Source of the DNA: Candidatus Omnitrophota bacterium
GTDB lineage: Bacteria > Omnitrophota > Gorgyraeia > S143-82
Length of the DNA: 64,000 nt
Direction of reading: 5' to 3'
Assembly: GCA_015494465.1 (NCBI GenBank)
Contig: WGBD01000008.1
Span: forward strand, 3,485-67,484
The notes below the pieces were generated by a model that was not told the DNA's origin, searched no databases, and saw only the letters and a program-made list of their open reading frames with translations. The translations under genes and the position numbers were made by a program. Positions 28,393 through 47,500 of the stretch are shown in pieces. Each line of letters begins with the position of its first letter. Within the stretch, counting starts at the first letter, position 1.

Positions 28393-28688
28393 ACCTTCCT
28401 CCCTTGCAATTGAACCTTCCCTATAAGACTGCGTTCACTATTAAACTTCAAAAAGAAGGCCTTATCAACCCAAAAATCCCGGTTTGTAACCCCCAAGCAG
28501 AACCAATATTGGGCCTGCAAGGGCCCTATGCCAGAGAGATACCGTCCTATCATTAACTGTGCAAATCAGATTTGCGTTGCTGAGGGGAAATGCGTATTGT
28601 ATGATTTTCTAGTGCGGTATGACGCTGGGCTCGTGTCTCCAATCCCAACTAGACAAACTTAAATCCGTTTACTTGGAGAAAAGAAGGC

Positions 28689-30533: not shown

Positions 30534-30536
30534 AGA

Positions 30537-31481: not shown

Positions 31482-31488
31482 ATCTCGA

Positions 31489-32439: not shown

Positions 32440-32448
32440 AGCCCCTTT

Positions 32449-34607: not shown

Positions 34608-35763
34608 CAGTTACATCATTTAGTATTTCCCTTAAAAACACGGACTCTCCCTTAAAGTCCTCTTCTCTCAAGCAATGCGTTGGGGTTTCATCGCCCAACT
34701 CCCTTATCCATCCCGCTACCGTATTAACGGGCATCCTAGGACCTTCTATGACTCGAGCCGGAATAAACCTGCCTACGACAGAGGCCCTTGCTAATTGTTC
34801 CACGGCATCTAACGGGTATATAACGGTAGGCTTACGCCAATAAATCAATTTGGTGATAGTGTTATAGCCCGCCATGTTAATACTTAGTCTACACTTGCTT
34901 AACAAAAAGTTAAACTTCTCAAGCGGAAGAGATTCGTAAATCGTAACATTATCCGGTGCAACTTTGCGGACCTCCTCTACGAGATCATCCCTAGAAGAAG
35001 GCCCCAACACGAGAACGAACCTATCGTTTGGCATCCTCTTCGCCAAGACGATGGCCAAGGATATGATCCTATCGTTTATCACACCACCTCCCCGTGAAAC
35101 CATAACAAAATCCTTAGGGATGTCGAGAGGGGAAGTCTTTGTGTCTATGACGAAACCGGTGTACACGATCCTATCGCGATACCTATCCAGAATAGCCAAG
35201 AGGTCCTGCACCCCTCTAGAGATCTCGGCCATTTCCCGTAGATAGAGCCTTAAAAAGTCCTCCGTACTATGTATGAAAATTTTATCGTAGTACCTGCCTA
35301 TTATAGCATCTGCGCCTCTTACATGGCTCACATATCCACAAGAGCAATATATCCTCCTCACCTTAGGGCGTATCGCCTCCAGCACCGTGTAAAGCTCCTC
35401 CGTCCAAAAGGCGTCACCCAAGGGGAAGTATTCGGTAATGAAGACATCCGGAGAAAAGCTCTCTATCTCGGAGAGGATAACCGATATCCTCTCGCTCATG
35501 GCCTTCCTACCCCAAGGGCTGGACAAAACTTTAGAATGAAGGGGATCAAACCTGTCCACAAACATACCTTTTTTTGCGTACGAATGCGGTAATAAGATCA
35601 CTTTCCCCAATCTGCCAAAATCCAACAACCGCTGTCTCTTACCTCCTTGAAGGATCAGCAATTCGACATCCAAATTGGCCTTTAGGTAGGATAGTAAATT
35701 ATAGGTTCTCAGACTGTGGCCGAAGCTATTATAATGATTGTAATACAAACATATCTTAATCAT
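34597..35763 (-). CDS. Putative GT-B fold glycosyltransferase, paralog 2
   Basis: NSFGHSLRTYNLLS and EYFPLGDAF parallel GCLGHTSRVFAIAS and EYFPFGRFQ in 29382..30533. Confidence 0.5.
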   Translation of the reverse strand: MIKICLYYNHYNSFGHSLRTYNLLSYLKANLDVELLILQGGKRQRLLDFGRLGKVILLPHSYAKKGMFVDRFDPLHSKVLSSPWGRKAMSERISVILSEIESFSPDVFITEYFPLGDAFWTEELYTVLEAIRPKVRRIYCSCGYVSHVRGADAIIGRYYDKIFIHSTEDFLRLYLREMAEISRGVQDLLAILDRYRDRIVYTGFVIDTKTSPLDIPKDFVMVSRGGGVINDRIISLAIVLAKRMPNDRFVLVLGPSSRDDLVEEVRKVAPDNVTIYESLPLEKFNFLLSKCRLSINMAGYNTITKLIYWRKPTVIYPLDAVEQLARASVVGRFIPARVIEGPRMPVNTVAGWIRELGDETPTHCLREEDFKGESVFLREILNDVTDGN

Positions 35764-35780
35764 ACAGACCGATCGACATC

Positions 35781-36620
35781 ATGAATATTTACATTATTCT
35801 AAACCTCGCGATTGCCTTGTTCTTCTCTAGAACCGACTTATTATACAAAAGGATACCAAACATTCCCATTGCTATCGTCATTTTAATGGGCACGGGTCTC
35901 AATGCATATCTATTTCCAAACCGCATTCACATGATGATCCTAAATACGCTCCTTGCGACAGCCATAGCCTTCATCCTATTCTGGTTCGACATCTGGAAAG
36001 CAGGTGACGGTAAACTCCTTATTGCATTTACGGCTTTGACACCACCTTTTTTTATCGCCAACATAATTCCCCCACCTATTATCCTGACTTCCTTAGCTTT
36101 TGTACTAGGGCTAGGGGTATCCCTTCCGCCGATGGCCTTCTCTCTTTGGAAGACAGTGAGGAAAGATCCTCCAAAGATAATGGAAATAGCCTCTGATCTG
36201 GCGGAAAAGATAGCGATAGCCATTAGCACGATATGGATCATCCGGATATTTCTAAGGAACACCGTGAAGAACAACATGATCATGTACCTCCTAGCCTATG
36301 CTATAATCTCTAGCCTAAAAACGAATTGGCTTTCTAGACAAAATAAAACCTTGGTCCGAGGGATAACGGTGCTGGGATTGACAGGTCTGCTCGTGGCCTC
36401 CCGCTACCTTAGATACTTCGATGTGAAGTCCTATCTATTGATTACCACGGTCTACATCTCCATCTATTCCGCAATCGACTTGCTTTTAAAACACATTCCT
36501 GAGGAAGCAGCCAAAAAGCGCATACCTCTGGCCCCATTGATGGCCTGTGCTCAGATGCTAATAATATCAGCGCCTCCTCAGACAATGCAGTACATCTTTC
36601 GGATGCTACGGATAATATGA
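35781..36620 (+). CDS. A24-family aspartic peptidase (prepilin/preflagellin peptidase-like, TadV/CpaA type)
   Basis: Polytopic membrane protein with both catalytic Asp contexts: TDLLYKRIPN (first Asp plus the RIPN motif) and WKAGDGKLLIAF (the GxGDxKL motif). Confidence 0.7.
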   Translation: MNIYIILNLAIALFFSRTDLLYKRIPNIPIAIVILMGTGLNAYLFPNRIHMMILNTLLATAIAFILFWFDIWKAGDGKLLIAFTALTPPFFIANIIPPPIILTSLAFVLGLGVSLPPMAFSLWKTVRKDPPKIMEIASDLAEKIAIAISTIWIIRIFLRNTVKNNMIMYLLAYAIISSLKTNWLSRQNKTLVRGITVLGLTGLLVASRYLRYFDVKSYLLITTVYISIYSAIDLLLKHIPEEAAKKRIPLAPLMACAQMLIISAPPQTMQYIFRMLRII

Positions 36621-37819
36621 GAAGATCCCCGCCAATAACATCCATTAAGATAGACAAGATATCTCCCTATCAGTTAAAGAAACTCAAGAACATAATCCAG
36701 AATAGGCACCCCTTTCCACTACTGATATACAATGTCCCTTACTGTCTATTCCCAAAAGTGCCCCACTGGATAGTGGCTGAATACGACGACGGAGACAAAA
36801 CAGAACAGTGTCAACGATGCGCCTGGAACTTACTCTGTCCTGGCTTTCCTTTTGACAGAGTAAGATCTACTACGCCAACCCCCATTGAGGACAAACCAAA
36901 TGAGGTGGTCATAGAGATATGTGGAAAGTGCCAACTATCGTGTGAATTCTGTAGATTTAGCAACAGCTCAACTGTAATAATAGAAACCTCCCAGATCTTT
37001 TCCATAATAGACGAGGCCCATATGATGGGGGTATCAACCATAAGGTTGACCGGGGGAGAACCCCTGCTCCACCCGGAAATCGACATAATCGTAGGCTACA
37101 TCGAAGAAAAGGGTATGAATTGCATCGTAAATACGAACGGATTATCGAGAAGGATCGTTGAACTTGCCAAACGGCATAATAACTTACAAAATGTATTGGT
37201 TTCTATACAATATAAAGACCTGTTCAACAAAAAACTCATCATCCAAAAGTTAAACAATCTAGCCCTACTAAAGGCCCATACAGCTATCGTAAGGATCGGA
37301 ACCGTAATACCACAACGAGTGAACTATCGGCAATTCGTTTTTCGGATGGCAAAGGTCATATACAAATTGCCTGTATTCCTGTGGGAGTTGTACAGGCCAT
37401 TCTCTCCTGAATGTAGACCGATAACGATCGATAGGCAAGGCTGGGAATCCATAACTAAAGGAATAACCGAACTCAAAAAGAGAGGTTTTCCTCACAAACT
37501 GGGGATAGCCAACAGCGTTCCGTTCTGTTACATGGACGAGCTGTCCAAATTATTGCTGGGCAACTTTACCGACGATGGACATACTCGAATAGTCTTCTCA
37601 GCACAGTACGAAGAATTTATCCCGTCCTACTTCTCCAACTTACTACTTGGCAAGTCCCTGATGAAAGCGTGGGACAACCCTGTCCTTCGAGCAAGGAGAA
37701 ACCTGGGGTGTTTGCCCAAACAATGCGACAGCTGTACATTAAGAAATATCTGCAGAGGAGGGTCTTACTCTATGTGGCCCCAGGAAGACCCAATGATACC
37801 TAAAAATACCTCTTTTTAA
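36617..37819 (+). CDS. Radical SAM / SPASM-like enzyme with an N-terminal Cys-containing extension
   Basis: ICGKCQLSCEFC (CxxxCxxC) about 100 aa in, LTGGEPL, and a C-terminal CDSCTLRNICRGG cluster. Its start overlaps the A24 peptidase stop (ATGA). Confidence 0.8.
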   Translation: MRRSPPITSIKIDKISPYQLKKLKNIIQNRHPFPLLIYNVPYCLFPKVPHWIVAEYDDGDKTEQCQRCAWNLLCPGFPFDRVRSTTPTPIEDKPNEVVIEICGKCQLSCEFCRFSNSSTVIIETSQIFSIIDEAHMMGVSTIRLTGGEPLLHPEIDIIVGYIEEKGMNCIVNTNGLSRRIVELAKRHNNLQNVLVSIQYKDLFNKKLIIQKLNNLALLKAHTAIVRIGTVIPQRVNYRQFVFRMAKVIYKLPVFLWELYRPFSPECRPITIDRQGWESITKGITELKKRGFPHKLGIANSVPFCYMDELSKLLLGNFTDDGHTRIVFSAQYEEFIPSYFSNLLLGKSLMKAWDNPVLRARRNLGCLPKQCDSCTLRNICRGGSYSMWPQEDPMIPKNTSF

Positions 37820-38489
37820 ACTCGAGATAATCTCTATACCCAAAGGTGGTTACGGCGGAATAAAAGTAGCTTAATCCAGAAAGTTCCTTGGCCTTGCCTC
37901 TTCCCGATAACACCTTGCCCAACAATCGAAAGGCCTTTTCCATGTATTCCTTGGCCTTACAACCGCAGTAATCCAAGGTCAAGAATTGGAGGATGTACAC
38001 CGCAAGCAAGTCCCTCTCTGTATACGGCAATAACCCTTCTACCCCACTTTTGTAATATTGATACAAGTAGAAAAACAATTTCAGATCTTCCTCTGTAGCT
38101 ACTCGATCTTCCATAAGCTCGTCTTCGATGAGGTAAGAAAAGGACATAAATTTTTCCAAGTCGTTCCCGGTCAAAGCATCGCACAAGGACCTAAATTCGC
38201 GATTAGTGAGACCACCGCAGGCATCAGAAGAGACCGCCTGGATAAAACTAACCATATCAGAAGGAATCTCGTCATAATAGGCAAGGATAAAACCTGCCTT
38301 ACCCAACGCCAAGGCCCGGGGAGCCAGCATCACCTCAACATAGTCAACGACATCTTCCTTTCCAGCATAAGGGACGACTGAATCCTTTACATATGCCAAT
38401 AACTCGTCCAATCTAAGAGGGATATCCGCAGAGAAGGCGTAACCACCAATACCTAGGGTACAGAGCAAGATAACAAGCCACTTCATCAT
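37800..38489 (-). CDS. Secreted hypothetical protein (signal peptide MMKWLVILLCTLGIGGYAFSA). The start is revised to the ATG at 38489, behind a strong AGGGGAAGGGG Shine-Dalgarno sequence.
   Basis: Signal peptide followed by 200 aa with no recognised motif. It lies 10 nt downstream of precursor peptide 2. Confidence 0.55.
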   Translation of the reverse strand: MMKWLVILLCTLGIGGYAFSADIPLRLDELLAYVKDSVVPYAGKEDVVDYVEVMLAPRALALGKAGFILAYYDEIPSDMVSFIQAVSSDACGGLTNREFRSLCDALTGNDLEKFMSFSYLIEDELMEDRVATEEDLKLFFYLYQYYKSGVEGLLPYTERDLLAVYILQFLTLDYCGCKAKEYMEKAFRLLGKVLSGRGKAKELSGLSYFYSAVTTFGYRDYLEFKKRYF

Positions 38490-38499
38490 CCCCTTCCCC

Positions 38500-38835
38500 T
38501 TAGTAACAATGGGCATTGTGCGTGGTCAACCTGTTCTCATTGTGGTGAGATACCTTACAAGAGGCCTGCGTCGGCAACTCGTTCACATGAGACAAGTGAT
38601 AATTACCGTTTATGTGACGCGGGTGCTCTTTGGTTATAAGGCATCCGCTCTTTCCTAGATGCTCCGGGACGGTTCCATTGAAATGGGAAGTGTGACTACA
38701 AGAAGCATACCCTAGCTCGGCGATAGCTGACAAAAACCCCGAACACAAAATCCCGGCCTTTACGATCTCGTCCCGCCTCACAAAACCGGATTCGTCCGCT
38801 AAGAAGTCGTACAACTTACGAGTTATCCTGTTCAT
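38500..38835 (-). CDS. Precursor-like peptide 2 (111 aa): Flp-prepilin-like leader MNRITRKLYDFLADESG plus a His/Ser/Cys/Asn-rich C-terminal region ending ...NAHCY
   Basis: A perfect AGGAGG Shine-Dalgarno 3 nt upstream. It is a paralog of the upstream peptide, sharing DFLxDESGFVxRDxxVxxGI. The C-terminal half (SCSHTSHFNGT...HPRHINGNYHLSHVNE...SCKVSHHNENRLTTHNAHCY) is low-complexity and metal-ligand-rich. Confidence 0.6.
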   Translation of the reverse strand: MNRITRKLYDFLADESGFVRRDEIVKAGILCSGFLSAIAELGYASCSHTSHFNGTVPEHLGKSGCLITKEHPRHINGNYHLSHVNELPTQASCKVSHHNENRLTTHNAHCY

Positions 38836-38844
38836 ACCCCTCCT

Positions 38845-39090
38845 TCAGTAAGTACAGTACGAACTATGGGTAACATTCTTGTTCACATGATGCCAACTAC
38901 ATCCAGCCATTCCACTGGTGTGAACCGAACCATGGCTGGAGGTGTGGTTACAATGAGCTGAGGCCTCCAGGGTAGAAACCAATGACACCGCGGAAAGGAT
39001 GGCCATACCTTTTATTCCCGACCTAACCAGCGAATCCCGGGAAACAAAACCAGATTCGTCCATCAAAAAATCGCCTATCTTCTTTATCAC
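38845..39090 (-). CDS. Precursor-like peptide 1 (81 aa, GTG start): leader (M)IKKIGDFLMDESG plus core ...AHCNHTSSHGSVHTSGMAGCSWHHVNKNVTHSSYCTY containing His-Xaa-Ser triplets
   Basis: The GTG start at 39090 overlaps the TGA stop of the rSAM/SPASM gene (GTGA), with an AAGGA upstream. The 134-aa version in the ORF track would overlap the rSAM gene. The leader aligns with peptide 2. The core has HTS/HGS/HTS/HSS repeats and 4 Cys. Confidence 0.6.
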   Translation of the reverse strand: MIKKIGDFLMDESGFVSRDSLVRSGIKGMAILSAVSLVSTLEASAHCNHTSSHGSVHTSGMAGCSWHHVNKNVTHSSYCTY

Positions 39091-40454
39091 CCTATCCTTT
39101 GCATTCCCCACGCCTGAAGCTCCTCCTCGTACTCTTCGTAAAGACAAAAGAACAAGCGTATAACCGCGTTGTGGAATTCCAACATCGAAGAATGGCCAAG
39201 TATAGAGCCCGTCTCCTGGTAGGTGTACACAGGGCAGGTCCCCGTCCACGCTATAAAGGGATTACTTGGATCCACGATGTCCAGACAACTCGCAGTGGCC
39301 ATCCCTATAACGGTATCGTGGGCCAAGACATCTTTGTAGTCGTCTTTTAAGACATTACCGATGCGGAACATATCCCTATCTTCGAGCATCCTAGCCTCGT
39401 CGCAGGTGTAAACATCTCCGTTAGGCATGTAAGCAAGGACATTCCTCCCCGCACCACACGGACAACACATGTCCACATAACTGGGATCGGAATAATACAA
39501 TATCTTTTGGGCGACATTGGACATCATCCTCTCTTTAATTGTAATTCCCGACCTGTTCAGATTCAACATATATCTCACAGCTTTCTCGTAGACGCTCATA
39601 AATTCATCCAGAGAATAACCTATTTTCTGCCATGTCTCCGGATCCACATTGATCTTACTAAGGGGTCTAAAGGCTATAGTCTTGATGCCCATATCCACAT
39701 AAGAGTCTATTATCTCCTTCCAATACTTAAGGCTTTCCCTGCTTATGGTCGTGATCAACGAAACAGAAGCCGACCGTCTTTGCAATAGATCAATTGCCTT
39801 CCGCACTACATCGTGGGTAGGCCTTCCGTCGACATAACGGCGATTGAAGTCGTGGACCTGACTTGGCCCATCGTAAGACACGCAAATCCCAACGCCTTTT
39901 TCTTTCAAGAAATCCACCTTCTCTTCGTCAAGCAGAGAACCATTGGTCACCAAAGATATCTCCAGATCCTTCGTTCCGTTATTCCACTCCCTTGCCTTTT
40001 CAACCATAAACTTTAGGGTCTCCCAATTCAAAAGAGGCTCGCCTCCTTGAAATTCCAAGGAGACGCTGTACCTTCTACTATCAAACAAAAACTTCAAGAT
40101 GTGGGCAGCCACCTCCAAACCCATTCTCCTTTTTTCATTACTCCTAGCCTGGCAATACACACAATCGAAATTACATTCCGTGGTAAGGACCGCGATGTGA
40201 AGACCAACATCCGAAAAGAGATGGCTATTCAACGACCTGAAACGGCCCGTTATGTCGTCCAAATTAGCCTCTGAAATGACGATCCCTCGTCTTTCCAATT
40301 TCTCTAGCAGAAAGGGATCTAACTGATCGATGTCTCCCAATCGAAACTGAGAGATGTCATCTAAGAGGGTCCATCCCCCAAACCTATTAGAGATCAAGTA
40401 CTTACCCGTCTTCTCAAAGTATTGCACATAAAAAGGCAGAAATACCCGTTTCAT
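39087..40454 (-). CDS. Radical SAM/SPASM-domain peptide-maturase-like enzyme with an N-terminal RRE-like (PqqD-like) extension
   Basis: About 90 aa precede TECNFDCVYCQ (CxxxCxxC). The glycine motif is EFQGGEPLL. The C-terminal Cys-rich region (MCCPCGAGRN...YTCDEA...ASCLD...CPVYTY) is SPASM-like. The gene is translationally coupled to the precursor peptide. Confidence 0.8.
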   Translation of the reverse strand: MKRVFLPFYVQYFEKTGKYLISNRFGGWTLLDDISQFRLGDIDQLDPFLLEKLERRGIVISEANLDDITGRFRSLNSHLFSDVGLHIAVLTTECNFDCVYCQARSNEKRRMGLEVAAHILKFLFDSRRYSVSLEFQGGEPLLNWETLKFMVEKAREWNNGTKDLEISLVTNGSLLDEEKVDFLKEKGVGICVSYDGPSQVHDFNRRYVDGRPTHDVVRKAIDLLQRRSASVSLITTISRESLKYWKEIIDSYVDMGIKTIAFRPLSKINVDPETWQKIGYSLDEFMSVYEKAVRYMLNLNRSGITIKERMMSNVAQKILYYSDPSYVDMCCPCGAGRNVLAYMPNGDVYTCDEARMLEDRDMFRIGNVLKDDYKDVLAHDTVIGMATASCLDIVDPSNPFIAWTGTCPVYTYQETGSILGHSSMLEFHNAVIRLFFCLYEEYEEELQAWGMQRIG

Positions 40455-40666
40455 CGGTTAAAATCCCTACTGACAATTAACAACTCCATCAAGGCCTCTT
40501 CTATATCGTCGCCTTGAAACTGCACTTCCCACCTATTGCCATACGGCTTTATCGAAACCAGATTGTACCTGTTCAACACCTCGGAAGGCATCTTATCCAA
40601 GGGATAAACGCTCCTGGATAGAAACACGCGAGCATCTCCGTTTAGCAAGGGCAGGGTATCACTCAT
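40451..40666 (-). CDS. Small protein (71 aa) coupled (ATGA) to the rSAM/SPASM gene; a possible stand-alone peptide-binding (PqqD/RRE-like) or accessory protein
   Basis: ORF in tight operon context (overlaps on both sides). No motif was confidently recognised. Confidence 0.4.
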   Translation of the reverse strand: MSDTLPLLNGDARVFLSRSVYPLDKMPSEVLNRYNLVSIKPYGNRWEVQFQGDDIEEALMELLIVSRDFNR

Positions 40667-41033
40667 CCTCTGCTTCTAACTCTTTTATGAGCTCTTCTAT
40701 CTCCTTTTCTTCCGCTTCCTGAATAAATTTCGGAGACGAAGAGAACAGCGCCCGCTGTATGATCAACTTAGCTACTTCATTATTCTCCTTCAGCGAGGCA
40801 AAGTATCTCTCGTAATTTATAAGCTGGTTACCAAATTCCAGCTCGATGTCATCTATAGAAGCACCTCCCTTTGACTTCACATAAGCAATGTAATACTTTT
40901 CATCTTCGTCTATCACGATGTATGCCTTGCCCAAGAATGTATACGCTGCGTTGTAGATGGCCTGCAGGGAATAGAGGTTCTTATTGATCTTTATGGCCTT
41001 CCACCCCCCTTTATAAACAGCCATTCCTACCAC
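40659..41033 (-). CDS. Small acidic-tailed protein (124 aa), possibly an HxsD-like accessory protein
   Basis: Operon position directly upstream of the rSAM cassette. An internal ...QLINYERYFASLKE... segment loosely resembles the LLNDYxLRE signature recalled for HxsD. The C-terminal poly-Glu tail is EEKEIEELIKELEAEDE. Confidence 0.4.
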   Translation of the reverse strand: MVGMAVYKGGWKAIKINKNLYSLQAIYNAAYTFLGKAYIVIDEDEKYYIAYVKSKGGASIDDIELEFGNQLINYERYFASLKENNEVAKLIIQRALFSSSPKFIQEAEEKEIEELIKELEAEDE

Positions 41034-41549
41034 CTACCCTCCACAATAATATATCCTTCCATTGACCCTTAGGTCGTGATCAACCGTGAGGTTGTTCTCC
41101 ACTCGCAGATTCCCTTTAACTCTATCCTGAATCGTCAATGTATTCACCTGCAAATGACCTGCTACCGTACCATTACCTGTGACCTCCAAGTTACCGGTAA
41201 CTGTGACCTTGCCATTCGAAGGATCAATAGTTACCGCAGCCCTAGCAGGGTCACCTATGACGACCTTGCCCGTTGCTGTTATGTACAAAGAGCCATCGGT
41301 TGGATCGAAGGTTACCCTGGCTACATTTGAAGTGATATCCTTAAAAAATATCTCTTTCTGCAAAACAATAACCCCGTCCTCAAGGGCTTCACCCATGAGA
41401 CTGCTCCCCACCGAGAGCTTATAAGTCCTCAACTCTTCGTACTCGCCGTAAGGGGACGGATAATAGACGGAAATGGTTTTATGGCTCTCTGACCACCCAA
41501 AGACAGGGATCACCAAGGATAAAAGCAGCAACAAAAATGTATTCTTCAT
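41034..41549 (-). CDS. Secreted protein (171 aa) with a conserved VYYPSPYGEYEELR N-terminal module and bactofilin-like beta-helix repeats
   Basis: The signal peptide is MKNTFLLLLLSLVIPVFGW. The module is shared with 55831..57393. Repeats (GNLEVTGNGTVAGHLQVNTLTIQDRVKGNLRVENNLTVDHDLRVNG) resemble bactofilin/beta-helix repeats. It is the first gene of the rSAM operon. Confidence 0.55.
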   Translation of the reverse strand: MKNTFLLLLLSLVIPVFGWSESHKTISVYYPSPYGEYEELRTYKLSVGSSLMGEALEDGVIVLQKEIFFKDITSNVARVTFDPTDGSLYITATGKVVIGDPARAAVTIDPSNGKVTVTGNLEVTGNGTVAGHLQVNTLTIQDRVKGNLRVENNLTVDHDLRVNGRIYYCGG

Positions 41550-41717
41550 GGTTTATCCTAACTTCTTCCAACCACATCAAATATTAACACGCAAGCGTCA
41601 ATCAGGTCAAGGACTGCACGACATTGAGACCAGCGATTCAGCACACACCATTGCAAAAAATTGGCCACTGGGCAAGATTAGAAGGATCGCTCGCAGAGAC
41701 GAAACCCGTTCTCGCGC

Positions 41718-44534
41718 CTACCTTCCCAAGATCCGGCGCAGGAACTGGCCGGTGTAGGACCTCGGATTCTTCGCTACCTCCTCGACCGGGCCTTCTGCAA
41801 CTATCCTGCCCCCTTCTTCCCCACCCTCTGGGCCGAGGTCTATTATCCAGTCTGCGGTCTTTATCACATCCAAATTGTGCTCTATCACTACTACGGTATT
41901 GCCCATGTCCACCAATCGGTGCAGGACCTTCAGAAGCTTTTCTTCGTCGGCAAAGTGCAGACCGGTGGTGGGCTCGTCGAGTATGTAAAGGGTATTTCCA
42001 GTATCCTTGCGGGCAAGTTCGCTCGCCAGTTTTACCCTCTGGGCCTCGCCCCCGGACAGGGTGGTCGCAGGTTGACCCAGTTTTATGTACCCCAAACCCA
42101 CATCGTAAAGGGTATCAAGTATTCTCTTTATAGTGGGGATGTTGGAGAACAGCTCCCGGGCGGATTCCACGCTCATCTCCAGGACATCCGCTATGGAATA
42201 GCCCTTGTACTTGACCTGCAGGGTCTGCTGGTTGTAGCGTCTGCCCTTGCACACCTCACAGGGGACATACACATCGGGTAAAAAGTGCATCTCTATCTTT
42301 ATGACTCCCTCTCCCTTACAGGCCTCGCACCTGCCCCCTTTCACATTGAAACTGAACCTTCCGGGTTTGAATCCACGCACCTTGGCAGAGGGCAGTTGAG
42401 CAAACAGCCTGCGGATGTGGGTGAACACATCGGTGTAAGTGGCAGGATTGGAACGCGGGGTCTTGCCTATGGGATCCTGATCCACCATTATAACCTTGTC
42501 TACGGACTGCCAACCGATGATGGACCTGTGGGCTCCGGGCCTCTCCTTGCTCTTGTACAACTTCCGCCTCAAGGCCTTGTAGAGGATGTCGTAGACGAGG
42601 GTGGACTTCCCCGAACCCGACACACCGGTAACGCAGACGAAAACACCCAAGGGGATCTTGACATCTATGTTCTTCAAGTTGTGCTCCCGGGCACCCTTTA
42701 TCCACAACCAACCCTTGGGCTCTCGTTTGGACTTGGAGACCTCTATCTTCAGATCCCCCCGCAGGTACTTTGCGGTTAATGAGCGTTTGTCTCTCAACAG
42801 GTCCTTCACCGGCCCACAGAATACCACCTCTCCGCCGTGCTCCCCTGCACCGGGCCCCATGTCCACCACATAGTCGGCTGACAAGATGGTTTCCGCGTCG
42901 TGTTCCACGACCACCAAGGTGTTGCCGGCCGACTTGAGGGCGAGCAGGGAGTCTATCAGCATCCGGTTGTCCCGGGGGTGCAGTCCGATGCTCGGCTCGT
43001 CGAGCACATACAAGACACCGGTGAGGCCGGATCCTATCTGGGTGGCAAGGCGTATCCTCTGTGCCTCCCCACCTGAGAGTGTCGAACTCAAGCGGTTCAA
43101 TTGCAGGTACCCCACTCCGGTCCTCTCGCAGAACTCCAGTTTCTTTACCGCCTCCCGGAGTATGTGTCTGGCGATCTCCTCCTCTCTCTCGCTGAAGTGC
43201 AGGCCCTTTAGGAACCGGAGGGCAGAGGATATGTCCATCTGGCAGACATCCCATATGTTCTTGCCCCCGACGAACACGCTCAGGGCCTCCTTCCTCAACC
43301 GGGCCCCTCCGCAGGCAGGACAGGGCTTCTCGGACATGTAGCGGGATATCTCTGCCTTTAGTTCCTCGCTGTCGGTCTCCCGGAAGAGGCGCAAGAGGTG
43401 AGGGATAAGCCCCTCAAATGGCTTGCCCCAGACCTCCTCGTCACTGCCGTAGAGGAGTTCCCGCTTCTGCCAGGCGGGGAGTTCCCGAAACGGACGGTGC
43501 ATGTCTATCCCCCGCAGATAGCAGAACTCTCGCAAAAGGGACTTGTAATACATTATGTACCCCCGCCCGCCCTTCCTCCACGGCTCCAGTGCACCCTCCT
43601 CCAGGGACTTATCGGGGTCGGGGATTACCTTGTCCTTGTCCACCTCAAAACTTATCCCCAGGCCATTGCAGACCGGACAGGCCCCGTAAGGGCTGTTAAA
43701 AGAGAAGAGACGCGGTTCTATCTCGGGATAACTTATCCCGCAGTAGGGGCAGGCGAGCTTCTCGCTGAACAGGACCTCCTCCTCTTTCCCTTCCTTATAG
43801 AAGACCACGCTCATCAGGCCGTTCCCCGCCTTCAGGGCGGTCTCTACTGCCTCAGTTATCCTTACCCGGGAACTGGCCTGCACCACCACCCGGTCCACCA
43901 CCAGATCTATGTCGTGGATACGGTACCTGTCCAAGGGCGGGACCTGATCCACCGGATAGACCTGCCCGTCCACCCGCACCCTAGCAAATCCCTGTCTCTG
44001 GATTTCCTTGAACAGGTCCTCGTATCGACCCTTCTTGCCCCTGATTATCGGAGCAAGTATCATCGCCCGGAGTCCCTCGTTATCCGACTTGAGTATTGAA
44101 TTCACGATTTCCTCAGCGCTCTGTCCCCGCATAGGCCGGCCACAGGAGTAGCACCTGACCTCCCCCAACCGGGCAAACAGGAGGCGGAGGTAGTCGTAGA
44201 CCTCGGTCTGGGTGGCGACGATGGAACGGGGGTTGTGGGACAACTTCCTCTGCTCTATCGCTATCGCCGGGGAAAGCCCCTCTATGTAATCCACATCCGG
44301 TTTCTGCAACTGCTGGAGGAACTGCCGGGCGTAGGCAGAGAGGCTTTCCACATACCTTCGCTGTCCCTCGGCATAAAGGGTATCAAAGGCAAGCGAGGAC
44401 TTACCCGACCCGCTTAACCCGGTAATGACCGTAAAGGCCTGAGCGGGTATCTCCAAGGTTATGTTCTTTAGGTTGTGCTCTCTTGCACCTACGACCCTGA
44501 TCTTCCTCATAGCCTCAGAATAAGAGTATACCAC
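41718..44534 (-). CDS. uvrA: Excinuclease ABC subunit A
   Basis: Two ABC ATPase modules with Walker A (GLSGSGKSSL and GVSGSGKSTL), zinc-finger Cys clusters, and 938 aa. Confidence 0.96.
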   Translation of the reverse strand: MVYSYSEAMRKIRVVGAREHNLKNITLEIPAQAFTVITGLSGSGKSSLAFDTLYAEGQRRYVESLSAYARQFLQQLQKPDVDYIEGLSPAIAIEQRKLSHNPRSIVATQTEVYDYLRLLFARLGEVRCYSCGRPMRGQSAEEIVNSILKSDNEGLRAMILAPIIRGKKGRYEDLFKEIQRQGFARVRVDGQVYPVDQVPPLDRYRIHDIDLVVDRVVVQASSRVRITEAVETALKAGNGLMSVVFYKEGKEEEVLFSEKLACPYCGISYPEIEPRLFSFNSPYGACPVCNGLGISFEVDKDKVIPDPDKSLEEGALEPWRKGGRGYIMYYKSLLREFCYLRGIDMHRPFRELPAWQKRELLYGSDEEVWGKPFEGLIPHLLRLFRETDSEELKAEISRYMSEKPCPACGGARLRKEALSVFVGGKNIWDVCQMDISSALRFLKGLHFSEREEEIARHILREAVKKLEFCERTGVGYLQLNRLSSTLSGGEAQRIRLATQIGSGLTGVLYVLDEPSIGLHPRDNRMLIDSLLALKSAGNTLVVVEHDAETILSADYVVDMGPGAGEHGGEVVFCGPVKDLLRDKRSLTAKYLRGDLKIEVSKSKREPKGWLWIKGAREHNLKNIDVKIPLGVFVCVTGVSGSGKSTLVYDILYKALRRKLYKSKERPGAHRSIIGWQSVDKVIMVDQDPIGKTPRSNPATYTDVFTHIRRLFAQLPSAKVRGFKPGRFSFNVKGGRCEACKGEGVIKIEMHFLPDVYVPCEVCKGRRYNQQTLQVKYKGYSIADVLEMSVESARELFSNIPTIKRILDTLYDVGLGYIKLGQPATTLSGGEAQRVKLASELARKDTGNTLYILDEPTTGLHFADEEKLLKVLHRLVDMGNTVVVIEHNLDVIKTADWIIDLGPEGGEEGGRIVAEGPVEEVAKNPRSYTGQFLRRILGR

Positions 44535-47500
44535 CCGCCTTTTCCGGGGGCCTGCTCGGGGGACCTTCGGGAGGTATCAGGGAGGAAAGGAACTCCAATG
44601 ACTCACCCTCCATTATGAGCTGTCCGAGACCGAATCTCAGGAACTGATCCCCCTCCTGGAGGAGGTTGTGCTTCTCCAGTACGACCCCCACGGCAACCAA
44701 CCACTGGCCCAGACTCCACTTTTCATCCTCTGCCACTCGGGACACCGACCTCATCTCTGCAATTGCCTCGTCCACCGCCTGCTCCATCTCTTCGGGATAG
44801 AGGTCTGCCAAGGTAGATCTTATCTCCTCCCACTCGTTTCTCTCAAGCAGATCCCTCCAAGGGAACTCCATCTTAAGCCACCTCTTCAAGGAATCCCTGC
44901 CCTCTACGATGTCGTCCAGCAGGGTCTTTATCTCGTACAGACCCGCAGAGGCCCTATTGCGGAACCGCTCGTAGAGATCCGTCGCCTCCCTCTGTAAGGC
45001 GACTATCCGCTCCCCGACCGGCAGTATACGCTCTACACCAAAGATGTCCTTCAACTTCCCTGCCATGTCCTGCGGATCGTACACAAGCCTCCACTGCCTC
45101 TGTCCGGGCAGTCTTGCCTCCGTCTCCATCCACTTCACCGCCACCCGTCTTACATCCAACCTCTTCTCCCAGAACCTGCGGGCAGACGGGGAAGAAAACC
45201 GCATAAGCCCGTAGACCGCCTTCCCGCTTACCGACACCCCAGCCTGCCCCAGAGAGACCCTTGCCTGAGGTAATATCTCCTTAGGAATGTATGTCTTCTC
45301 GTCGGGAATCACTATCGTGGACACCAAATCGGTCAACTCGTAATCCCCGGGAAGGCCTTCGGCCAACAGGCCCAATAACCCGTCTACATCCCATCCGTAG
45401 GTCTCGTTGTCCTGCCCTGCAGGCAGGACCAATACCACCTCCCTGCCCTCCGCCATCGCCTGCCTGAGAAACTCCAACACCGACCGCATCTTAAAAAACG
45501 GAAGGATTGAGGTGAAGAAACTGCCCGGTCCGATGACTATTGGGCCGCCTCTCTCACCGGCAAGGAGCTCCACATCCTTACCCATAATCAGATTCCTCAC
45601 CCCCTCCTCGCTGGCAAGGGCAAAGAGCTTCTTGGGGTCCTTGCTCTCCACCTCTAGAAAACCTAAAGAAACTATTGGAAGCTGGGAAAACCACTCGGTA
45701 ATACCCGTCTGGGTGATGACCACCTCCCCGCTGATGTAGACCTTCCAAGGGCCGACCACCGCAACCGGCTCGTCCTCCTCCGTTGCCTCTGCGCCCCTCC
45801 TCCTACCGCTACCGTCCCTGGCCAGATAGACCCTTTTGCCCTCCACCTCAACAGCGGGATCAAAACCACCTCCCTCCACGAGACGAATCCCCCCAACGAT
45901 CGGGACATCGCCCTCGAGTGATACCACCAGACCTTCTGCCAGAGCAATCTCGCTTCCCGGGGAGAGATCGTAGACCTCCTGCCTGCCCCCTTTCAGCACC
46001 TTCACCTTCCATCCCTCTCCAGCGCGATAGAGCCCTGCGTAGACGGTCCCCTGCTGGGACTGCAGACGAACGGTCCAGCCCCTCCTGCGGGCGAATAAGG
46101 TATAAGGGCGCTCTTGGGAGAAGGCTATCCTCTTGTTGTCCAGGCCCAAGAGCATAACCGAGGAATCCAGGACCTCCTGGGCATCGGACCTCGCTACACC
46201 AAACTGGAGTCGCATTATCGCATACAACAGGGCGTTCCTGAGGGACATCCGATCCTCCTCCAAGACCTCAGGAAGGTGCGATCTGCGGATCCTGTACATA
46301 AGGTAAAGGAGTCTGGTCAGGTCGTCTTCCTCTTCTTCGGGAAGGGCCTCGTTCTTTTGCCTTAGATAGCGGACTACCGACGAAAGGGTCTTAACGAGGA
46401 CCTCTTCTTTTTTCGTCCGTTTGTCGTCGGTAAAGAGATGATACTTCCAGCCCTTGAGAAAACCGGTCAGGGCGTTTGCAGCATCCCCCAGAGGAATGGG
46501 ATCCCTGCGTCCCTCCTCTTCCATCGCCAACATAAACCTCAGGGAGCTCCCTCCGTCGTCTAAGTTGTGCACCAGATAGATGGCGGAGGGATCTCCAAAG
46601 GCATCCATTACATCCCTCCAGAGGTACCTCACCGATGTACCACCGCCCAGAAAGACCACATCGAACGGTTGCAACGCGAACCCCGTCTCCCGAGTCCAGG
46701 TCAAAAATCCCATCACATCCCGGGTGCGAGCCTCCAAAAATCCTTCCAAGGCGGGCAGGATGCGGGAGATTAACTCCTCCAGATCCGCCTCTGGCCAGGC
46801 GGTCAGGGCGTTCACTACCCCCGCGAGGTTGCCTTCCTCCAGTCTCTTAGTCAAGGCAGAGGCCTCAAACTCCATCCACCGGTTATAACGCCGATTGGCA
46901 TAGGCAAGGACATGTAGAACCTGTCTGCTCGCCTCCATCTCACCCTTTACCCACAGGGTGCCTTCCCGGAACTGGTCCCCCACATTGACCACTTGCCCCA
47001 CCCTGCCAATTACCACCACATCGTTCCCGTCCGGACCAAACCCGTCCCCGAGATAGACGACCTGGCCTGGATCCACCCCGAAGACATCCCTGAGTTTCTC
47101 TATCCCTATCCCCTTGCCCCCGGGCAGGGTGATGTCTATACTGAAAGTACCTGCAAGGGCAACCTTAAGATCCACGCCCAGGTCTCCAAGGGCAGACCCT
47201 ATCTCATCTGCCAATGCCTCCCTTACCTGCCGGGACCTCTCCGGGTCTATCTCCTGCTCGAGGCGCCTCCTCTCCTCCCGGGTAAAACCATAGCCCCAAG
47301 GACAAAACACTATAGACGACTCCCTCACCAGGAGCACATCCCCCCGCACGGGCCTTAGATTATGCCTATCTGCTATCTCCCGCAGGGTCATTATCAGCGA
47401 CTGCAATTTCTCCTGCCCCAACACATTCACTAGTCTGATGCAATAGACCTGTCGCATCTCGCCTGCCTCCACCCGCCAGGCGACTGCACCGCTCTCTCCC

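What the first reader, a model, noticed from the sequence alone, without database searches (positions are those of the whole stretch)
38500..41033. Resemblance to His-Xaa-Ser (Hxs) systems: HxS-repeat peptide, two nearby rSAMs, and a small possibly HxsD-like protein
Peptide 1 carries four His-Xaa-Ser triplets within 25 residues (HTS, HGS, HTS, HSS). The described but functionally uncharacterised His-Xaa-Ser systems comprise an HxS-repeat precursor, two radical SAM maturases and a small protein, HxsD. Here the 124-aa ORF (40659..41033), with a ...LINYERYFASLKE... segment and an acidic tail, sits at the head of the operon, and two rSAM/SPASM genes (39087..40454 and 36617..37819) flank the peptides. 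I recall the HxsD signature only approximately, so this is a hypothesis. If true, this locus would be an elaborated Hxs-type system with a prepilin-type leader and dedicated peptidase.
Basis: inference. Interest (0 to 1): 0.6.

Follow-up and report, generated by a model that had tools for sequence, protein, structure and literature searches.

The report
Hxs-like peptide system with prepilin peptidase
This is a divergent relative of the His-Xaa-Ser (HXS) radical-SAM system, recently shown in E. coli to block phage DNA entry, whose His/Ser-rich precursor peptides carry a pilin-like cleavage signal and sit beside their own prepilin-type peptidase, an arrangement I found described in no paper.

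Summary

- **HxsD-like:** the 124-aa ORF matches HxsD best (TIGR03976, E 1.5e-12).
- **HxsB-like:** the 455-aa radical SAM enzyme matches HxsB best (TIGR03978, E 4e-94).
- **Peptides:** both match only the curated variant model HxsA3 (E 1e-3 to 2e-5).
- All these scores lie below NCBI's curated cut-offs.
- **No HxsC:** the second radical SAM enzyme (36617..37819) is not HxsC but a separate small family.

The architecture recurs in about 17 related loci, mostly Omnitrophota-type metagenome assemblies. The order is a secreted YYPSPYG protein, HxsD-like, a small ORF, HxsB-like, then 1-2 peptides. An A24 peptidase is nearby in 12 of 14 assessable loci and the second radical SAM enzyme in 13 of 15.

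Eighteen of 19 peptides share a K/R-rich N-terminus and the motif F-[LIVM]-x-D-[ED]-x-G|F-V-S-[RK]-D, which resembles a type IV prepilin site. Seventeen of 19 end in Tyr.

Best reading: HxsB-like and HxsD-like modify the peptide core, the A24 peptidase removes the leader, and the product ends up in the envelope. Function is inferred only by analogy to E. coli HXS, so antiphage activity is speculative.

In this genome the 13.3-kb cluster is a low-GC island. Verdict: a new variant of a known kind.

The parts
41034..41549 (-). 171-aa secreted protein. It has a signal peptide, a conserved N-terminal YYPSPYGEY motif and a bactofilin-like beta-helix domain. It is probably the first gene of the operon.
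   Evidence: PF04519 34.4 bits, above the 27.9 cut-off. A homologous YYP[SA]PYGxY protein precedes HxsD-like in L001-L005, L091 and others. A promoter-like site lies at 41610..41581.
40659..41033 (-). HxsD-like protein. It is 124 aa from the GTG, or 121 aa from the ATG at 41024 as called in NCBI. It carries a clade-specific invariant acidic C-terminal helix.
   Evidence: TIGR03976 E 1.5e-12, 47.7 bits against a cut-off of 50; NF038315 29.9 bits. The 92%-identical P0124 and all 17 homologues carry PF27806 HxsD. It is 32% identical over 63 aa to an annotated HxsD. The model is beta-alpha-beta-beta plus a long helix, pLDDT 81.
40451..40666 (-). 71-aa conserved small ORF between HxsD-like and HxsB-like. 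Its function is unknown.
   Evidence: A counterpart of 65-101 aa occupies the same position in every related locus. It matches no family. A profile comparison with HxsD is negative.
39087..40454 (-). HxsB-like radical SAM peptide maturase with an N-terminal RRE-like domain (RiPP leader-recognition fold), a radical SAM core and a reduced SPASM-like domain.
   Evidence: TIGR03978 E 4.3e-94, 315.9 bits against a cut-off of 370. It is 30% identical over 454 aligned positions to an annotated HxsB. The model has pLDDT 91.9, and its best fold match is the sactipeptide maturase CteB, full length, TM 0.70-0.75, E 7.5e-22. CxxxCxxC lies at C94/C98/C101.
38845..39111 (-). Precursor peptide 1 (88 aa from the GTG at 39111, 81 aa from the GTG at 39090). 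Leader ...DFLMDESG|FVSRD, a hydrophobic segment, and a His/Ser/Cys-rich core with 4 HxS triplets, ending ...THSSYCTY.
   Evidence: Sequence. NF038309 HxsA3 E 1.7e-5. Alignment A1. Shuffle test.
38500..38835 (-). Precursor peptide 2 (111 aa). Same leader type (DFLADESG|FVRRD), a His-rich core (11 His in the 71 C-terminal residues), ending ...HNAHCY.
   Evidence: NF038309 HxsA3 E 1.2e-3. Alignment A1. No close homologue by word search.
37800..38516 (-). 238-aa secreted protein of unknown function that follows the peptides. It is conserved in related loci.
   Evidence: Counterparts of 215-286 aa lie downstream of the peptides in L001, L002, L007 and L090-L097. No family match.
35781..36620 (+). 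A24 (prepilin-type) aspartyl peptidase homologue, 279 aa. The A24 domain is N-terminal, followed by further membrane segments. Its stop overlaps the start of the next gene.
   Evidence: PF01478 26.9 bits against a cut-off of 26.5. D19 (TDLLYKRIPN) and G75-D76-x-K78 (AGDGK) are invariant in 6 orthologues. It is present in 12 of 14 assessable loci.
36617..37819 (+). Second radical SAM enzyme ('rSAM2'), 400 aa. It is not HxsC. It has an N-terminal 4-Cys region, CxxxCxxC, and a C-terminal CxxCx5CxGG motif.
   Evidence: Alignment A3 invariants. Only generic radical SAM hits. 24.6 and 30 bits against HxsC and HxsC-like. The family is small: 68 clusters at E<=1e-30 among 1.84 billion representatives. 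It is present in 13 of 15 assessable loci.
28689..35763 (.). Co-conserved accessory 'glyco' module: two GT28-like glycosyltransferases (34597..35763, 29382..30533), radical SAM enzymes (33552..34607, 30537..31481), a DegT-type aminotransferase (32449..33558), a 316-aa unknown (31489..32439) and a DUF2334 deacetylase-like protein (28689..29408, + strand).
   Evidence: Pfam and NCBIfam hits. The same genes flank the core in L001, L002, L004 and L094. They belong to the same low-GC island.

Best explanation
Window 28.4-41.7 kb is a self-contained, horizontally acquired gene cluster. Its core (35781..41549) is a divergent His-Xaa-Ser-type protein or peptide maturation system.

**Shown by homology and synteny**
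- An HxsD-like protein, a conserved 71-aa partner, and an HxsB-like maturase with RRE-like (RiPP leader-recognition), radical SAM and SPASM-like domains.
- Two HxsA3-like precursor peptides.
- A divergently encoded A24 peptidase, translationally coupled to a second radical SAM enzyme that is not HxsC.

**Inferred mechanism**
1. In the cytoplasm the HxsB-like enzyme docks on the conserved leader through its RRE-like domain. HxsD-like probably helps, perhaps with its invariant acidic tail facing the K/R-rich peptide N-terminus.
2. The enzyme installs a radical modification in the His/Ser-rich C-terminal core. The likeliest site is the last H-[ST]-S motif next to the conserved C-terminal Tyr, by analogy with the SHRSS site of E. 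coli HxsA.
3. The second radical SAM enzyme and the glyco module add further modifications.
4. The moderately hydrophobic segment carries the core across or into the inner membrane.
5. The A24 peptidase cuts after the invariant Gly of F-L-x-D-E-x-G|F-V-S-R-D.
6. The product is an envelope-located, modified His-rich peptide.

**Function**
Function rests only on analogy with E. coli HXS: an envelope barrier against phage DNA entry. A metal-binding or surface-structure role is about as likely.

**Rough probabilities**
- Hxs-type maturation system: 0.85.
- The A24 peptidase processes these peptides: 0.55.
- Antiphage function: 0.25.
For: - **Family hits:** HxsD, HxsB and HxsA3 are the best or only families for the respective ORFs.
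- **HxsB homologues:** those at 39-46% identity are named HxsB by NCBI or JGI. PF27806 HxsD is recorded on all HxsD-like homologues.
- **Direct alignment to an annotated hxsDBCA locus:** 30% identity for HxsB (E 2e-62) and 32% for HxsD.
- **Fold:** the HxsB-like model matches the leader-binding sactipeptide maturase CteB over its full length.
- **Synteny:** the order is kept in L001-L007 and L087-L097 down to about 40% HxsB identity.
- **Peptides:** F8, D11, G14, F15, V16, G25 and the C-terminal Tyr are invariant in alignment A1. Among 19 peptides, 18 have F-[LIVM]-x-D-[ED]-x-G, 15 of those 18 have F at +1, and 17 of 18 have an acidic residue at +5.
- **Peptidase:** both A24 catalytic Asp motifs are invariant.
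- **One case of co-loss:** the only peptide lacking the Gly (L091) comes from a locus without an A24 gene.
- **E. coli precedent:** HxsA needs HxsB, HxsC and HxsD for N-terminal processing, a +8 Da modification in SHRSS, and export to the periplasm (PMC13128918).
- **Island:** GC is 45.1% in the cluster against 55.9% outside.
Against: - All Hxs model scores are below the curated cut-offs.
- There is no HxsC, although in E. coli HxsC is essential and forms the core complex with HxsD.
- The HxsB-like clade lacks the CxxC of the CxxCx5C motif present in canonical HxsB, and has other conserved Cys instead. The chemistry may therefore differ.
- The peptide cores are not basic (0-5 K/R), unlike the HRSHRSH repeats of canonical HxsA. 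They also lack a peptidoglycan-binding domain, so the proposed electrostatic DNA-binding mechanism does not transfer.
- Peptide 2 is not enriched in HxS beyond its composition.
- The leaders do not match the Flp or pilin families in Pfam.
- The hydrophobic segment begins about 11 residues after the Gly rather than directly at +1, and it is only moderately hydrophobic (Kyte-Doolittle hydropathy 1.7-1.9). An AxA-like site before the core fits ordinary signal peptidase I instead.
- L097 has the Gly motif but no A24 gene within 8 kb.
- No experimental data exist for this clade.
Confidence: 0.6

Rival explanations
1. The system is Hxs-like, but the leader is an ordinary RiPP leader combined with a Sec-type signal peptide that has a long n-region. 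The radical SAM enzyme's RRE-like domain or HxsD recognises it, and signal peptidase I removes it at the AxA-like site just before the core. The neighbouring A24 peptidase serves another substrate or another role.
For: - The HxsB-like enzyme has an N-terminal three-strand, helical RRE-like domain and matches CteB, which binds its leader that way.
- The residues after the Gly (FVSRDSLVRSG) are polar, unlike a prepilin N-terminus.
- Small-x-small sites precede the core: EASA|H, YAS|C, SEA|C and LIAG|H.
- No Flp or pilin family match.
- L097 keeps the Gly motif without a nearby A24 gene.
Against: - An A24 gene with intact catalytic motifs lies within a few kb in 12 of 14 assessable loci spanning about 40-100% HxsB identity.
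- No other candidate prepilin substrate is conserved in the cluster.
- G at -1, F at +1 and an acidic residue at +5 are the defining positions of type IV prepilin sites (established knowledge), and they are the most conserved peptide positions.
Confidence: 0.25
2. The cluster builds a surface or envelope structure or a metal-binding factor, not a phage defence. Modified and possibly glycosylated His-rich peptides would act with the secreted YYPSPYG/bactofilin-like protein and the 238-aa secreted protein, for example as a metal-binding fibre or sheath component.
For: - A secreted protein with a polymer-forming bactofilin-like domain is always first in the operon.
- Glycosyltransferase, aminotransferase and deacetylase-like genes, or KS-ACP genes, are co-conserved.
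- Cores with 10-22% His plus Cys are typical metal ligands and are not basic.
- There is no PADLOC hit, and no relative on viral contigs.
Against: - The only experimentally studied relatives are antiphage (PMC13128918).
- The cluster is a horizontally acquired island here, as defence loci often are.
- No pilus or secretion assembly genes lie in the cluster.
- PADLOC-DB dates from 2023, before HXS was described, so its silence says little.
Confidence: 0.3
3. The resemblance is a coincidence: His/Ser-rich small ORFs next to generic radical SAM genes, with no specific relation to Hxs systems.
For: All Hxs scores are below the curated cut-offs. Peptide 2 shows no HxS enrichment beyond its composition.
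Against: - HxsB scores 316 bits against 139 for the next family, and HxsD has E 1.5e-12.
- The HxsA3 matches include the leader, not only the His/Ser-rich part. In L005 the match covers residues 9-54 and the peptide has no HxS triplet at all.
- The D-B-A gene order is conserved across many loci.
Confidence: 0.03

Closest known systems
Canonical HXS antiphage system (hxsD-hxsB-hxsC-hxsA; TIGR03976-TIGR03979; Haft & Basu 2011; Li et al. 2026, PMC13128918)
   Same: - A small HxsD-type protein followed by an HxsB-type radical SAM maturase and a His-x-Ser-containing substrate with an N-terminal export or processing signal.
- HxsB is 30% identical and HxsD 32% identical to the annotated proteins of Aeromonas plasmid NC_009349.1.
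- The counterpart of the LLNDYxLRE motif is conserved as N-[QE]-L-x-N-Y-x-[RH]-Y-F.
   Different: - There is no HxsC.
- An extra 71-aa ORF lies between D and B.
- The substrates are 81-111-aa peptides with a prepilin-like leader and a hydrophobic segment. Canonical HxsA is a ~190-214-aa protein with a Sec signal peptide, basic HRSH repeats and a peptidoglycan-binding domain.
- HxsD-like has an added invariant acidic helix.
- HxsB-like lacks the CxxC of the canonical CxxCx5C motif.
- An A24 peptidase, a second non-HxsC radical SAM enzyme and a glyco module are attached.
- The hosts are uncultured, mostly Omnitrophota-type, whereas 99.7% of canonical HXS systems are in Pseudomonadota.
NCBIfam variant models HxsA3 (NF038309), HxsC4 (NF038332) and HxsD_rel (NF038315): curated annotation models for which I found no published description
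   Same: HxsA3 is the only family matched by all the peptides examined, and the match covers the leader and the hydrophobic segment. HxsC4 and HxsC are the best hits of the extra 310-aa radical SAM enzyme in L004.
   Different: All scores are far below the cut-offs: 18-42 bits against 65 for HxsA3, and 147 bits against 500 for HxsC4. This clade is therefore related to those families but is not a member. The window has no HxsC4-like gene. I could not see the seed sequences or the gene neighbourhoods of those models.
Type IV and Flp prepilins with their A24 leader peptidases (PilD, TadV/CpaA)
   Same: - A K/R-rich N-terminus, Gly at -1, Phe at +1, an acidic residue at +5 and a following hydrophobic stretch.
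- F-L-x-D-E-x-G recalls the FLKDESG leader of Caulobacter Flp-type PilA. This is my recollection and was not tested here.
- A neighbouring A24 peptidase has both catalytic Asp motifs.
   Different: - No Pfam pilin or Flp match.
- Residues +2 to +10 are polar, and the hydrophobic stretch starts at about +11.
- There are no pilus assembly genes in the cluster.
- The C-terminal part is a His/Ser/Cys-rich core modified by a radical SAM enzyme, not a pilin domain.
- The peptidase has about 170 extra C-terminal residues and no solved relative detectable by sequence.
RRE-radical SAM-SPASM RiPP maturases (CteB and the SCIFF family, PapB ranthipeptide maturase, anSME)
   Same: The fold and domain order of the HxsB-like enzyme match. 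PapB and the SCIFF maturase are the next-best NCBIfam families. Many of the peptides contain conserved Cys.
   Different: The scores are far lower than for HxsB (139 against 316 bits). Some clade peptides have no Cys at all (L095), so thioether formation cannot be the shared reaction.

Membership tests
Hxs system (canonical, NCBIfam equivalogs) | HxsB radical SAM maturase: TIGR03978 at or above 370 bits | tested here: inconclusive
   315.9 bits, E 4.3e-94, full-length match (6-440 against 2-452 of 466). It is the best family by 176 bits but below the cut-off. It is 30% identical to an annotated HxsB. Homologues at 39-46% identity are named HxsB by NCBI.
Hxs system (canonical, NCBIfam equivalogs) | HxsC radical SAM maturase adjacent to HxsB: TIGR03977 at or above 267.9 bits | tested here: not met
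   No gene lies between or next to HxsB-like and the peptides. For the 400-aa radical SAM enzyme, HxsC is not among the top 25 families. The 351-aa and 314-aa radical SAM enzymes of the island score 36 and 48 bits. BLASTP of the 400-aa enzyme against an annotated HxsC gives 24.6 bits.
Hxs system (canonical, NCBIfam equivalogs) | HxsD small protein: TIGR03976 at or above 50 bits, or Pfam PF27806, with the LYW and LLNDYxLRE motifs | tested here: inconclusive
   47.7 bits, E 1.5e-12, just below the cut-off. PF27806 is recorded for the 92%-identical P0124 and all 17 homologues. The motifs are present in altered form: LYS, and NQLINYERYF.
Hxs system (canonical, NCBIfam equivalogs) | HxsA: TIGR03979, with a Sec signal peptide, tandem basic HxS repeats and a peptidoglycan-binding domain | tested here: not met
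   No TIGR03979 hit at E<=1. The peptides are 81-111 aa with no peptidoglycan-binding domain. The cores have 1-5 K/R. HxS counts are 4 and 2. Compare the Aeromonas HxsA sequence.
Hxs system (canonical, NCBIfam equivalogs) | Gene order hxsD-hxsB-hxsC-hxsA (99.6% of systems, PMC13128918) | tested here: not met
   Here the order is a secreted protein, HxsD-like, the 71-aa ORF, HxsB-like, peptide 1, peptide 2. D before B before A is kept, but C is missing.
HxsA3 (NF038309) | Score at or above 65 bits against the 81-position model | tested here: not met
   24.5 bits (peptide 1) and 18.5 bits (peptide 2). Relatives score 22.7-42.3 bits. The matches are significant and nearly full-length for most peptides, so the peptides are related but below the membership threshold.
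Peptidase A24 (type IV prepilin leader peptidase) | PF01478 at or above the gathering score, with two catalytic Asp residues | tested here: met
   26.9 bits against a cut-off of 26.5, residues 7-113. D19 and G75-D76-x-K78 are invariant in 6 orthologues. No NCBIfam or PDB sequence relative was found.
Class III (prepilin/Flp) signal peptide | Match to the Flp or pilin family models | tested here: not met
   No pilin or Flp family matched the four leaders tested, two of them the window's own, at E<=10.
Class III (prepilin/Flp) signal peptide | A basic N-terminus, Gly at -1, a hydrophobic or aromatic residue at +1 and an acidic residue at +5 | tested here: met
   Eighteen of 19 peptides have the Gly. 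Of those 18, 15 have F at +1 and 17 have D or E at +5. There are 2-11 K/R residues before the Gly.
Class III (prepilin/Flp) signal peptide | An uninterrupted hydrophobic helix beginning at +1 | tested here: not met
   Positions +3 to +10 carry R, D, S, K and R. The hydrophobic stretch begins at about +11 to +15, with a maximum Kyte-Doolittle hydropathy (15-residue window) of 1.67-1.86.
Class III (prepilin/Flp) signal peptide | Actual cleavage by the A24 peptidase | not testable with these tools
   This needs expression and N-terminal mapping.
RRE-radical SAM-SPASM peptide maturase | A CxxxCxxC core, an N-terminal leader-binding domain and a C-terminal auxiliary-cluster domain | tested here: met
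   C94, C98 and C101 are invariant. The fold matches CteB at full length, TM 0.70-0.75. The Pfam SPASM match is 19.4 bits against 21.5. Only four further invariant Cys are present (C191, C333, C351, C407), and the canonical CxxC is absent.

The most novel reading that the evidence does not exclude
This would be a previously undescribed class of envelope peptides: a hybrid between a type IV prepilin and a radical SAM-modified peptide. A dedicated A24 aspartyl peptidase would act as the leader protease of an Hxs-type, and possibly glycosylated, His-rich peptide. It would be the first case of a prepilin peptidase recruited to RiPP-like maturation. It would also show that the HxsB and HxsD pair can work without HxsC. 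The mature membrane-anchored or surface peptide would then act at the envelope, as a barrier to phage entry or as a metal-binding component.
Probability: 0.35. Interest if true: 0.75.

Novelty: new variant of a known kind. Interest (0 to 1): 0.58.

Why it matters
HXS was only recently shown to be an antiphage system that blocks DNA entry. Its chemistry (a +8 Da modification), the way HxsA is processed and exported, and the roles of HxsB, HxsC and HxsD are all unresolved (PMC13128918).

This clade is a natural variant that bears on those questions:
- It lacks HxsC.
- Its substrates are short peptides that should be easy to analyse by mass spectrometry.
- Its conserved C-terminal H-S-S-Y end marks a likely modification site.
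- It encodes its own candidate leader protease.

It could therefore make the minimal HxsB and HxsD chemistry and the processing step directly testable. It also extends Hxs-type systems well beyond Pseudomonadota, into Omnitrophota-type uncultured bacteria. If confirmed, it would add prepilin peptidases to the known leader proteases of modified peptides.

Tried and rejected
- **Word-based homologue search with peptide 2** found only the peptide itself. Exact look-ups of the window's own proteins found no contig on record.
- **Genome-collection scan with the second radical SAM alignment** was swamped by the generic LTGGEP motif. It gave one true relative, L007.
- **PADLOC** gave only generic radical SAM similarity to viperins.
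- **Viral contigs** hold no close relative; the best match is 25% identical.
- **HxsD-like model:** no significant PDB fold match (best E 0.04, TM below 0.5). An RRE-like or chaperone fold for HxsD is therefore not supported.
- **The 71-aa ORF as an HxsD paralogue:** the profile-profile comparison is negative (probability 1.9%).
- **The second radical SAM enzyme as a diverged HxsC:** rejected. It also co-occurs with HxsC-like genes in L004, L091 and L096.
- **A24 fused to the second radical SAM enzyme:** the ten long relatives tested are instead fused to further radical SAM domains and, in single cases, to B12-binding or GT2 domains.
- **A24 profile against PDB sequences:** no hit.
- **Leaders against Pfam Flp and pilin families:** no hit.
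- **Literature search** linking prepilin peptidases with radical SAM peptides returned nothing relevant among the top-listed papers.
- **tRNA as an integration site for the island:** there is no tRNA in the window.

Full report
**What is there.** The finding spans the minus-strand genes from 41033 down to 38500. In transcription order, the whole cluster reads:
- a 171-aa secreted protein (41034..41549);
- the 124-aa ORF (40659..41033);
- a 71-aa ORF (40451..40666);
- a 455-aa radical SAM enzyme (39087..40454);
- two small ORFs (peptide 1 ending at 38845, peptide 2 at 38500..38835);
- a 238-aa secreted protein (37800..38516).

Divergently, on the plus strand, lie a 279-aa membrane protein (35781..36620) and a 400-aa radical SAM enzyme (36617..37819), whose start overlaps the preceding stop. 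Further minus-strand genes down to about 28.7 kb encode two GT28-like glycosyltransferases, two more radical SAM enzymes, a DegT aminotransferase, an unknown protein and a DUF2334 protein. The stretch 28.4-41.7 kb has 45.1% GC against 55.9% outside. It sits between dapA and uvrA.

**Check of the observation.** Peptide 1 has HTS, HGS, HTS and HSS, spread over 29 residues rather than 25. Shuffles reach four triplets in about 2% of trials. Peptide 2 has two triplets, which is not beyond its composition. The 41-residue core of peptide 1 has 7 His and 8 Ser.

Reading the DNA, the best start for peptide 1 is the GTG at 39111. AGGAGGA lies 9 nt upstream, and the start overlaps the radical SAM gene's 3' end. 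This gives MGNAKDRVIKKIGDFLMDESG..., which parallels the peptides of related loci. The ORF with LINYERYFASLKE and an acidic tail is as described, but it is the second gene of the operon, not the first.

Results against NCBIfam were:

| ORF | Best family | Score | Cut-off |
|---|---|---|---|
| 124-aa ORF | HxsD (TIGR03976) | 47.7 bits, E 1.5e-12 | 50 |
| 455-aa radical SAM | HxsB (TIGR03978) | 315.9 bits, E 4.3e-94 | 370 |
| Peptide 1 | HxsA3 (NF038309), only hit | 24.5 bits, E 1.7e-5 | 65 |
| Peptide 2 | HxsA3 (NF038309), only hit | 18.5 bits, E 1.2e-3 | 65 |

- For the 455-aa enzyme, the next family (PapB) scores 139 bits.
- The 400-aa radical SAM enzyme gives only generic hits of 30-48 bits, and HxsC is not among its best 25 families.
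- Against an annotated hxsDBCA locus on Aeromonas plasmid NC_009349.1, HxsB-like is 30% identical over 454 aligned positions. HxsD-like is 32% identical over 63 residues.
- The 400-aa enzyme shows nothing specific against HxsC (24.6 bits).

So three of the four Hxs parts have homologues here. All are outside the curated equivalog thresholds, and HxsC is missing.

**Related loci.** HxsB-like has 720 relatives at E<=1e-20. The closest are 57-59% identical. A large group at 39-46% includes many that NCBI or JGI name HxsB in Omnitrophota assemblies. I fetched contexts for 10 of them. One more came from a genome scan (L007, an Omnitrophota assembly) and 8 from a metagenome scan with the HxsD alignment. 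I searched them with profiles built from my alignments.

- **Conserved core order:** a secreted YYP[SA]PYGxY protein, HxsD-like, a small ORF (65-101 aa), HxsB-like, then one or two peptides.
- **A24 peptidase homologue:** present in 12 of 14 loci with enough flank. It is absent from L091 and L097.
- **Second radical SAM enzyme:** present in 13 of 15 assessable loci. It is absent from L005 and L090.
- **HxsC-like enzyme:** L004, L091 and L096 also carry a 310-315-aa radical SAM enzyme between the small ORF and HxsB-like. For the L004 copy the best families are HxsC4 (147 bits) and HxsC (78.8 bits). Because the 400-aa enzyme co-occurs with it, the 400-aa enzyme is an addition and not a replacement for HxsC.
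- **Accessory modules vary:** the glyco module occurs in the window, L001, L002, L004 and L094. A KS-ACP-KS module occurs in L005 and L006.

**The peptides.** Eleven peptides align with F8, D11, G14, F15, V16, G25 and the C-terminal Tyr invariant. Across 19 peptides:
- 18 have F-[LIVM]-x-D-[ED]-x-G;
- 15 of those 18 have Phe at +1, and 17 of the 18 have Asp or Glu at +5;
- 2-11 Lys or Arg residues precede the Gly;
- 17 end in Tyr, often as HSSY; the window's peptides end ...THSSYCTY and ...HNAHCY.

Some relatives are true HxS arrays; L095 has nine triplets. Gly at -1, Phe at +1 and an acidic residue at +5 are the hallmark positions of type IV prepilin cleavage sites (established knowledge). 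F-L-x-D-E-S-G also recalls Flp-type leaders, but that is my recollection and was not tested.

The resemblance stops there. The leaders match no pilin family in Pfam. Positions +2 to +10 are polar. The hydrophobic stretch is moderate and starts near +11. A small-x-small site precedes the core, so signal peptidase I is a plausible alternative.

**The enzymes.**
- **A24 homologue:** it passes the Pfam threshold narrowly (26.9 against 26.5 bits). Both catalytic Asp motifs are kept in all six orthologues aligned.
- **HxsB-like:** the model (pLDDT 91.9) has an N-terminal three-strand plus helices domain. It superposes over its full length on the leader-binding sactipeptide maturase CteB (TM 0.70-0.75, E 7.5e-22).
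- **Difference from canonical HxsB:** the whole clade lacks the CxxC of the terminal CxxCx5C motif and has other invariant Cys instead (C191, C351). Its auxiliary cluster is probably bound differently.
- **HxsD-like:** the model is a small alpha/beta domain plus a long helix, with no significant PDB neighbour. Its invariant acidic tail (QEAEEKEIEELIKELE) lies outside the HxsD profile. It might dock on the basic peptide N-terminus, which is inference.
- **Second radical SAM enzyme:** it belongs to a small family, with 68 clusters at E<=1e-30 among 1.84 billion representatives.

**What is known.** Li et al. 2026 (PMC13128918) showed that E. coli HxsD-HxsB-HxsC-HxsA is an antiphage system.
- HxsA has a signal peptide, five basic HxS repeats and a peptidoglycan-binding domain. 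It needs HxsB, HxsC and HxsD for N-terminal processing, for a +8 Da modification in SHRSS and for periplasmic accumulation.
- HxsC binds HxsD.
- 99.7% of the systems are in Pseudomonadota, and 99.6% have the order D-B-C-A.

The clade described here differs on each of these points. In the top-listed results of my searches, no paper links prepilin peptidases with radical SAM-modified peptides, and none discusses HxsA3. NCBIfam does hold variant models (HxsA3, HxsC4, HxsD_rel), so curators have seen related variants.

**Most likely mechanism.**
- *Shown by homology:* an Hxs-type maturase pair plus its substrates.
- *Inferred:* cytoplasmic modification of the core by HxsB-like and HxsD-like, near the last H-[ST]-S/Tyr. 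Further tailoring by the second radical SAM enzyme and the glyco module. Membrane insertion or export through the hydrophobic segment, and leader removal by the A24 peptidase after the invariant Gly.
- *Function:* by analogy, an envelope barrier to phage. However, the cores are not basic and have no peptidoglycan-binding domain. The electrostatic DNA-trap model therefore does not carry over, and a metal-binding or structural role with the co-conserved secreted bactofilin-like protein is about as likely.

**Verdict.** This is a divergent, HxsC-less Hxs-type system with a prepilin-like leader and a dedicated A24 peptidase. It recurs in uncultured, mostly Omnitrophota-type bacteria, and in this genome it lies on a low-GC island. 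It is a new variant of a known kind.

Noticed in passing
window 28400..41700: The whole 13.3-kb cluster is a low-GC island (45.1% against 55.9% outside) inserted between dapA (27517..28392) and uvrA (41718..44534). There is no tRNA in the window. In related genomes the cluster's GC is close to that of its flanks, which suggests horizontal acquisition here.
   Followed up: partly
window 41034..41549 (-), with counterparts in L001 7001..7438, L002 6674..7432, L004 6010..6453, L005 6938..7363 and L091 5505..5975: A secreted protein family with a conserved N-terminal YYP[SA]PYG[EV]Y motif directly after the signal peptide. In the window it also has a bactofilin-like domain (PF04519 34.4 bits). It always sits just upstream of HxsD-like and matches no curated family.
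   Followed up: partly
window 39087..40454 (HxsB-like), alignment A7: All 36 aligned members of this HxsB clade, including several that NCBI or JGI name HxsB, lack the first two Cys of the CxxCx5C motif present in Aeromonas HxsB. They carry other invariant Cys (C191, C351) instead. The auxiliary Fe-S cluster is probably bound differently.
   Followed up: partly
window 40659..41033; alignments A4 and A6: HxsD-like proteins of this clade end in an invariant acidic helix (QEAEEKEIEELIKELE) that lies outside the TIGR03976 profile. Their substrate peptides have 2-11 Lys or Arg residues before the conserved Gly, which suggests charge-complementary docking.
   Followed up: no
L091 8958..9254 and L097 9391..9684: L091 has no A24 gene in the fetched 16 kb, and its peptide has lost the Gly of the motif (FLKDKKNTFSKSKL). 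L097 also has no A24 gene within 8 kb but keeps DEDG|FVSKE. That gives one case for and one case against co-loss of the site and the peptidase.
   Followed up: partly
L002 9931..10593 and L003 9934..10635: In two close relatives a third, larger (220-233 aa) secreted protein rich in His, Cys, Ser and Thr follows the two peptides. It contains HxS, HTS and CAHCSH motifs. The window has no counterpart.
   Followed up: no
L005 10721..14108, L006 9622..12372 and L090 14107..15123: In some loci the glyco module is replaced by a 335-338-aa unknown protein, which in L005 and L006 is followed by ketoacyl-synthase and acyl-carrier-protein genes. This hints at alternative decoration with an acyl group rather than a sugar.
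   Followed up: no
proteins P0166-P0195 (relatives of window 36617..37819): Distant relatives of the second radical SAM enzyme occur fused to further radical SAM domains, to B12-binding domains and, in one case, to a GT2 glycosyltransferase. None of the ten tested is fused to an A24 peptidase.
   Followed up: partly
window 44515..48561 (-): A 1348-aa ORF next to uvrA has only weak phosphomannomutase-like (PF03332 25.9 bits) and CofD-like (PF01933 29 bits, below cut-off) matches. It is otherwise unannotated.
   Followed up: no
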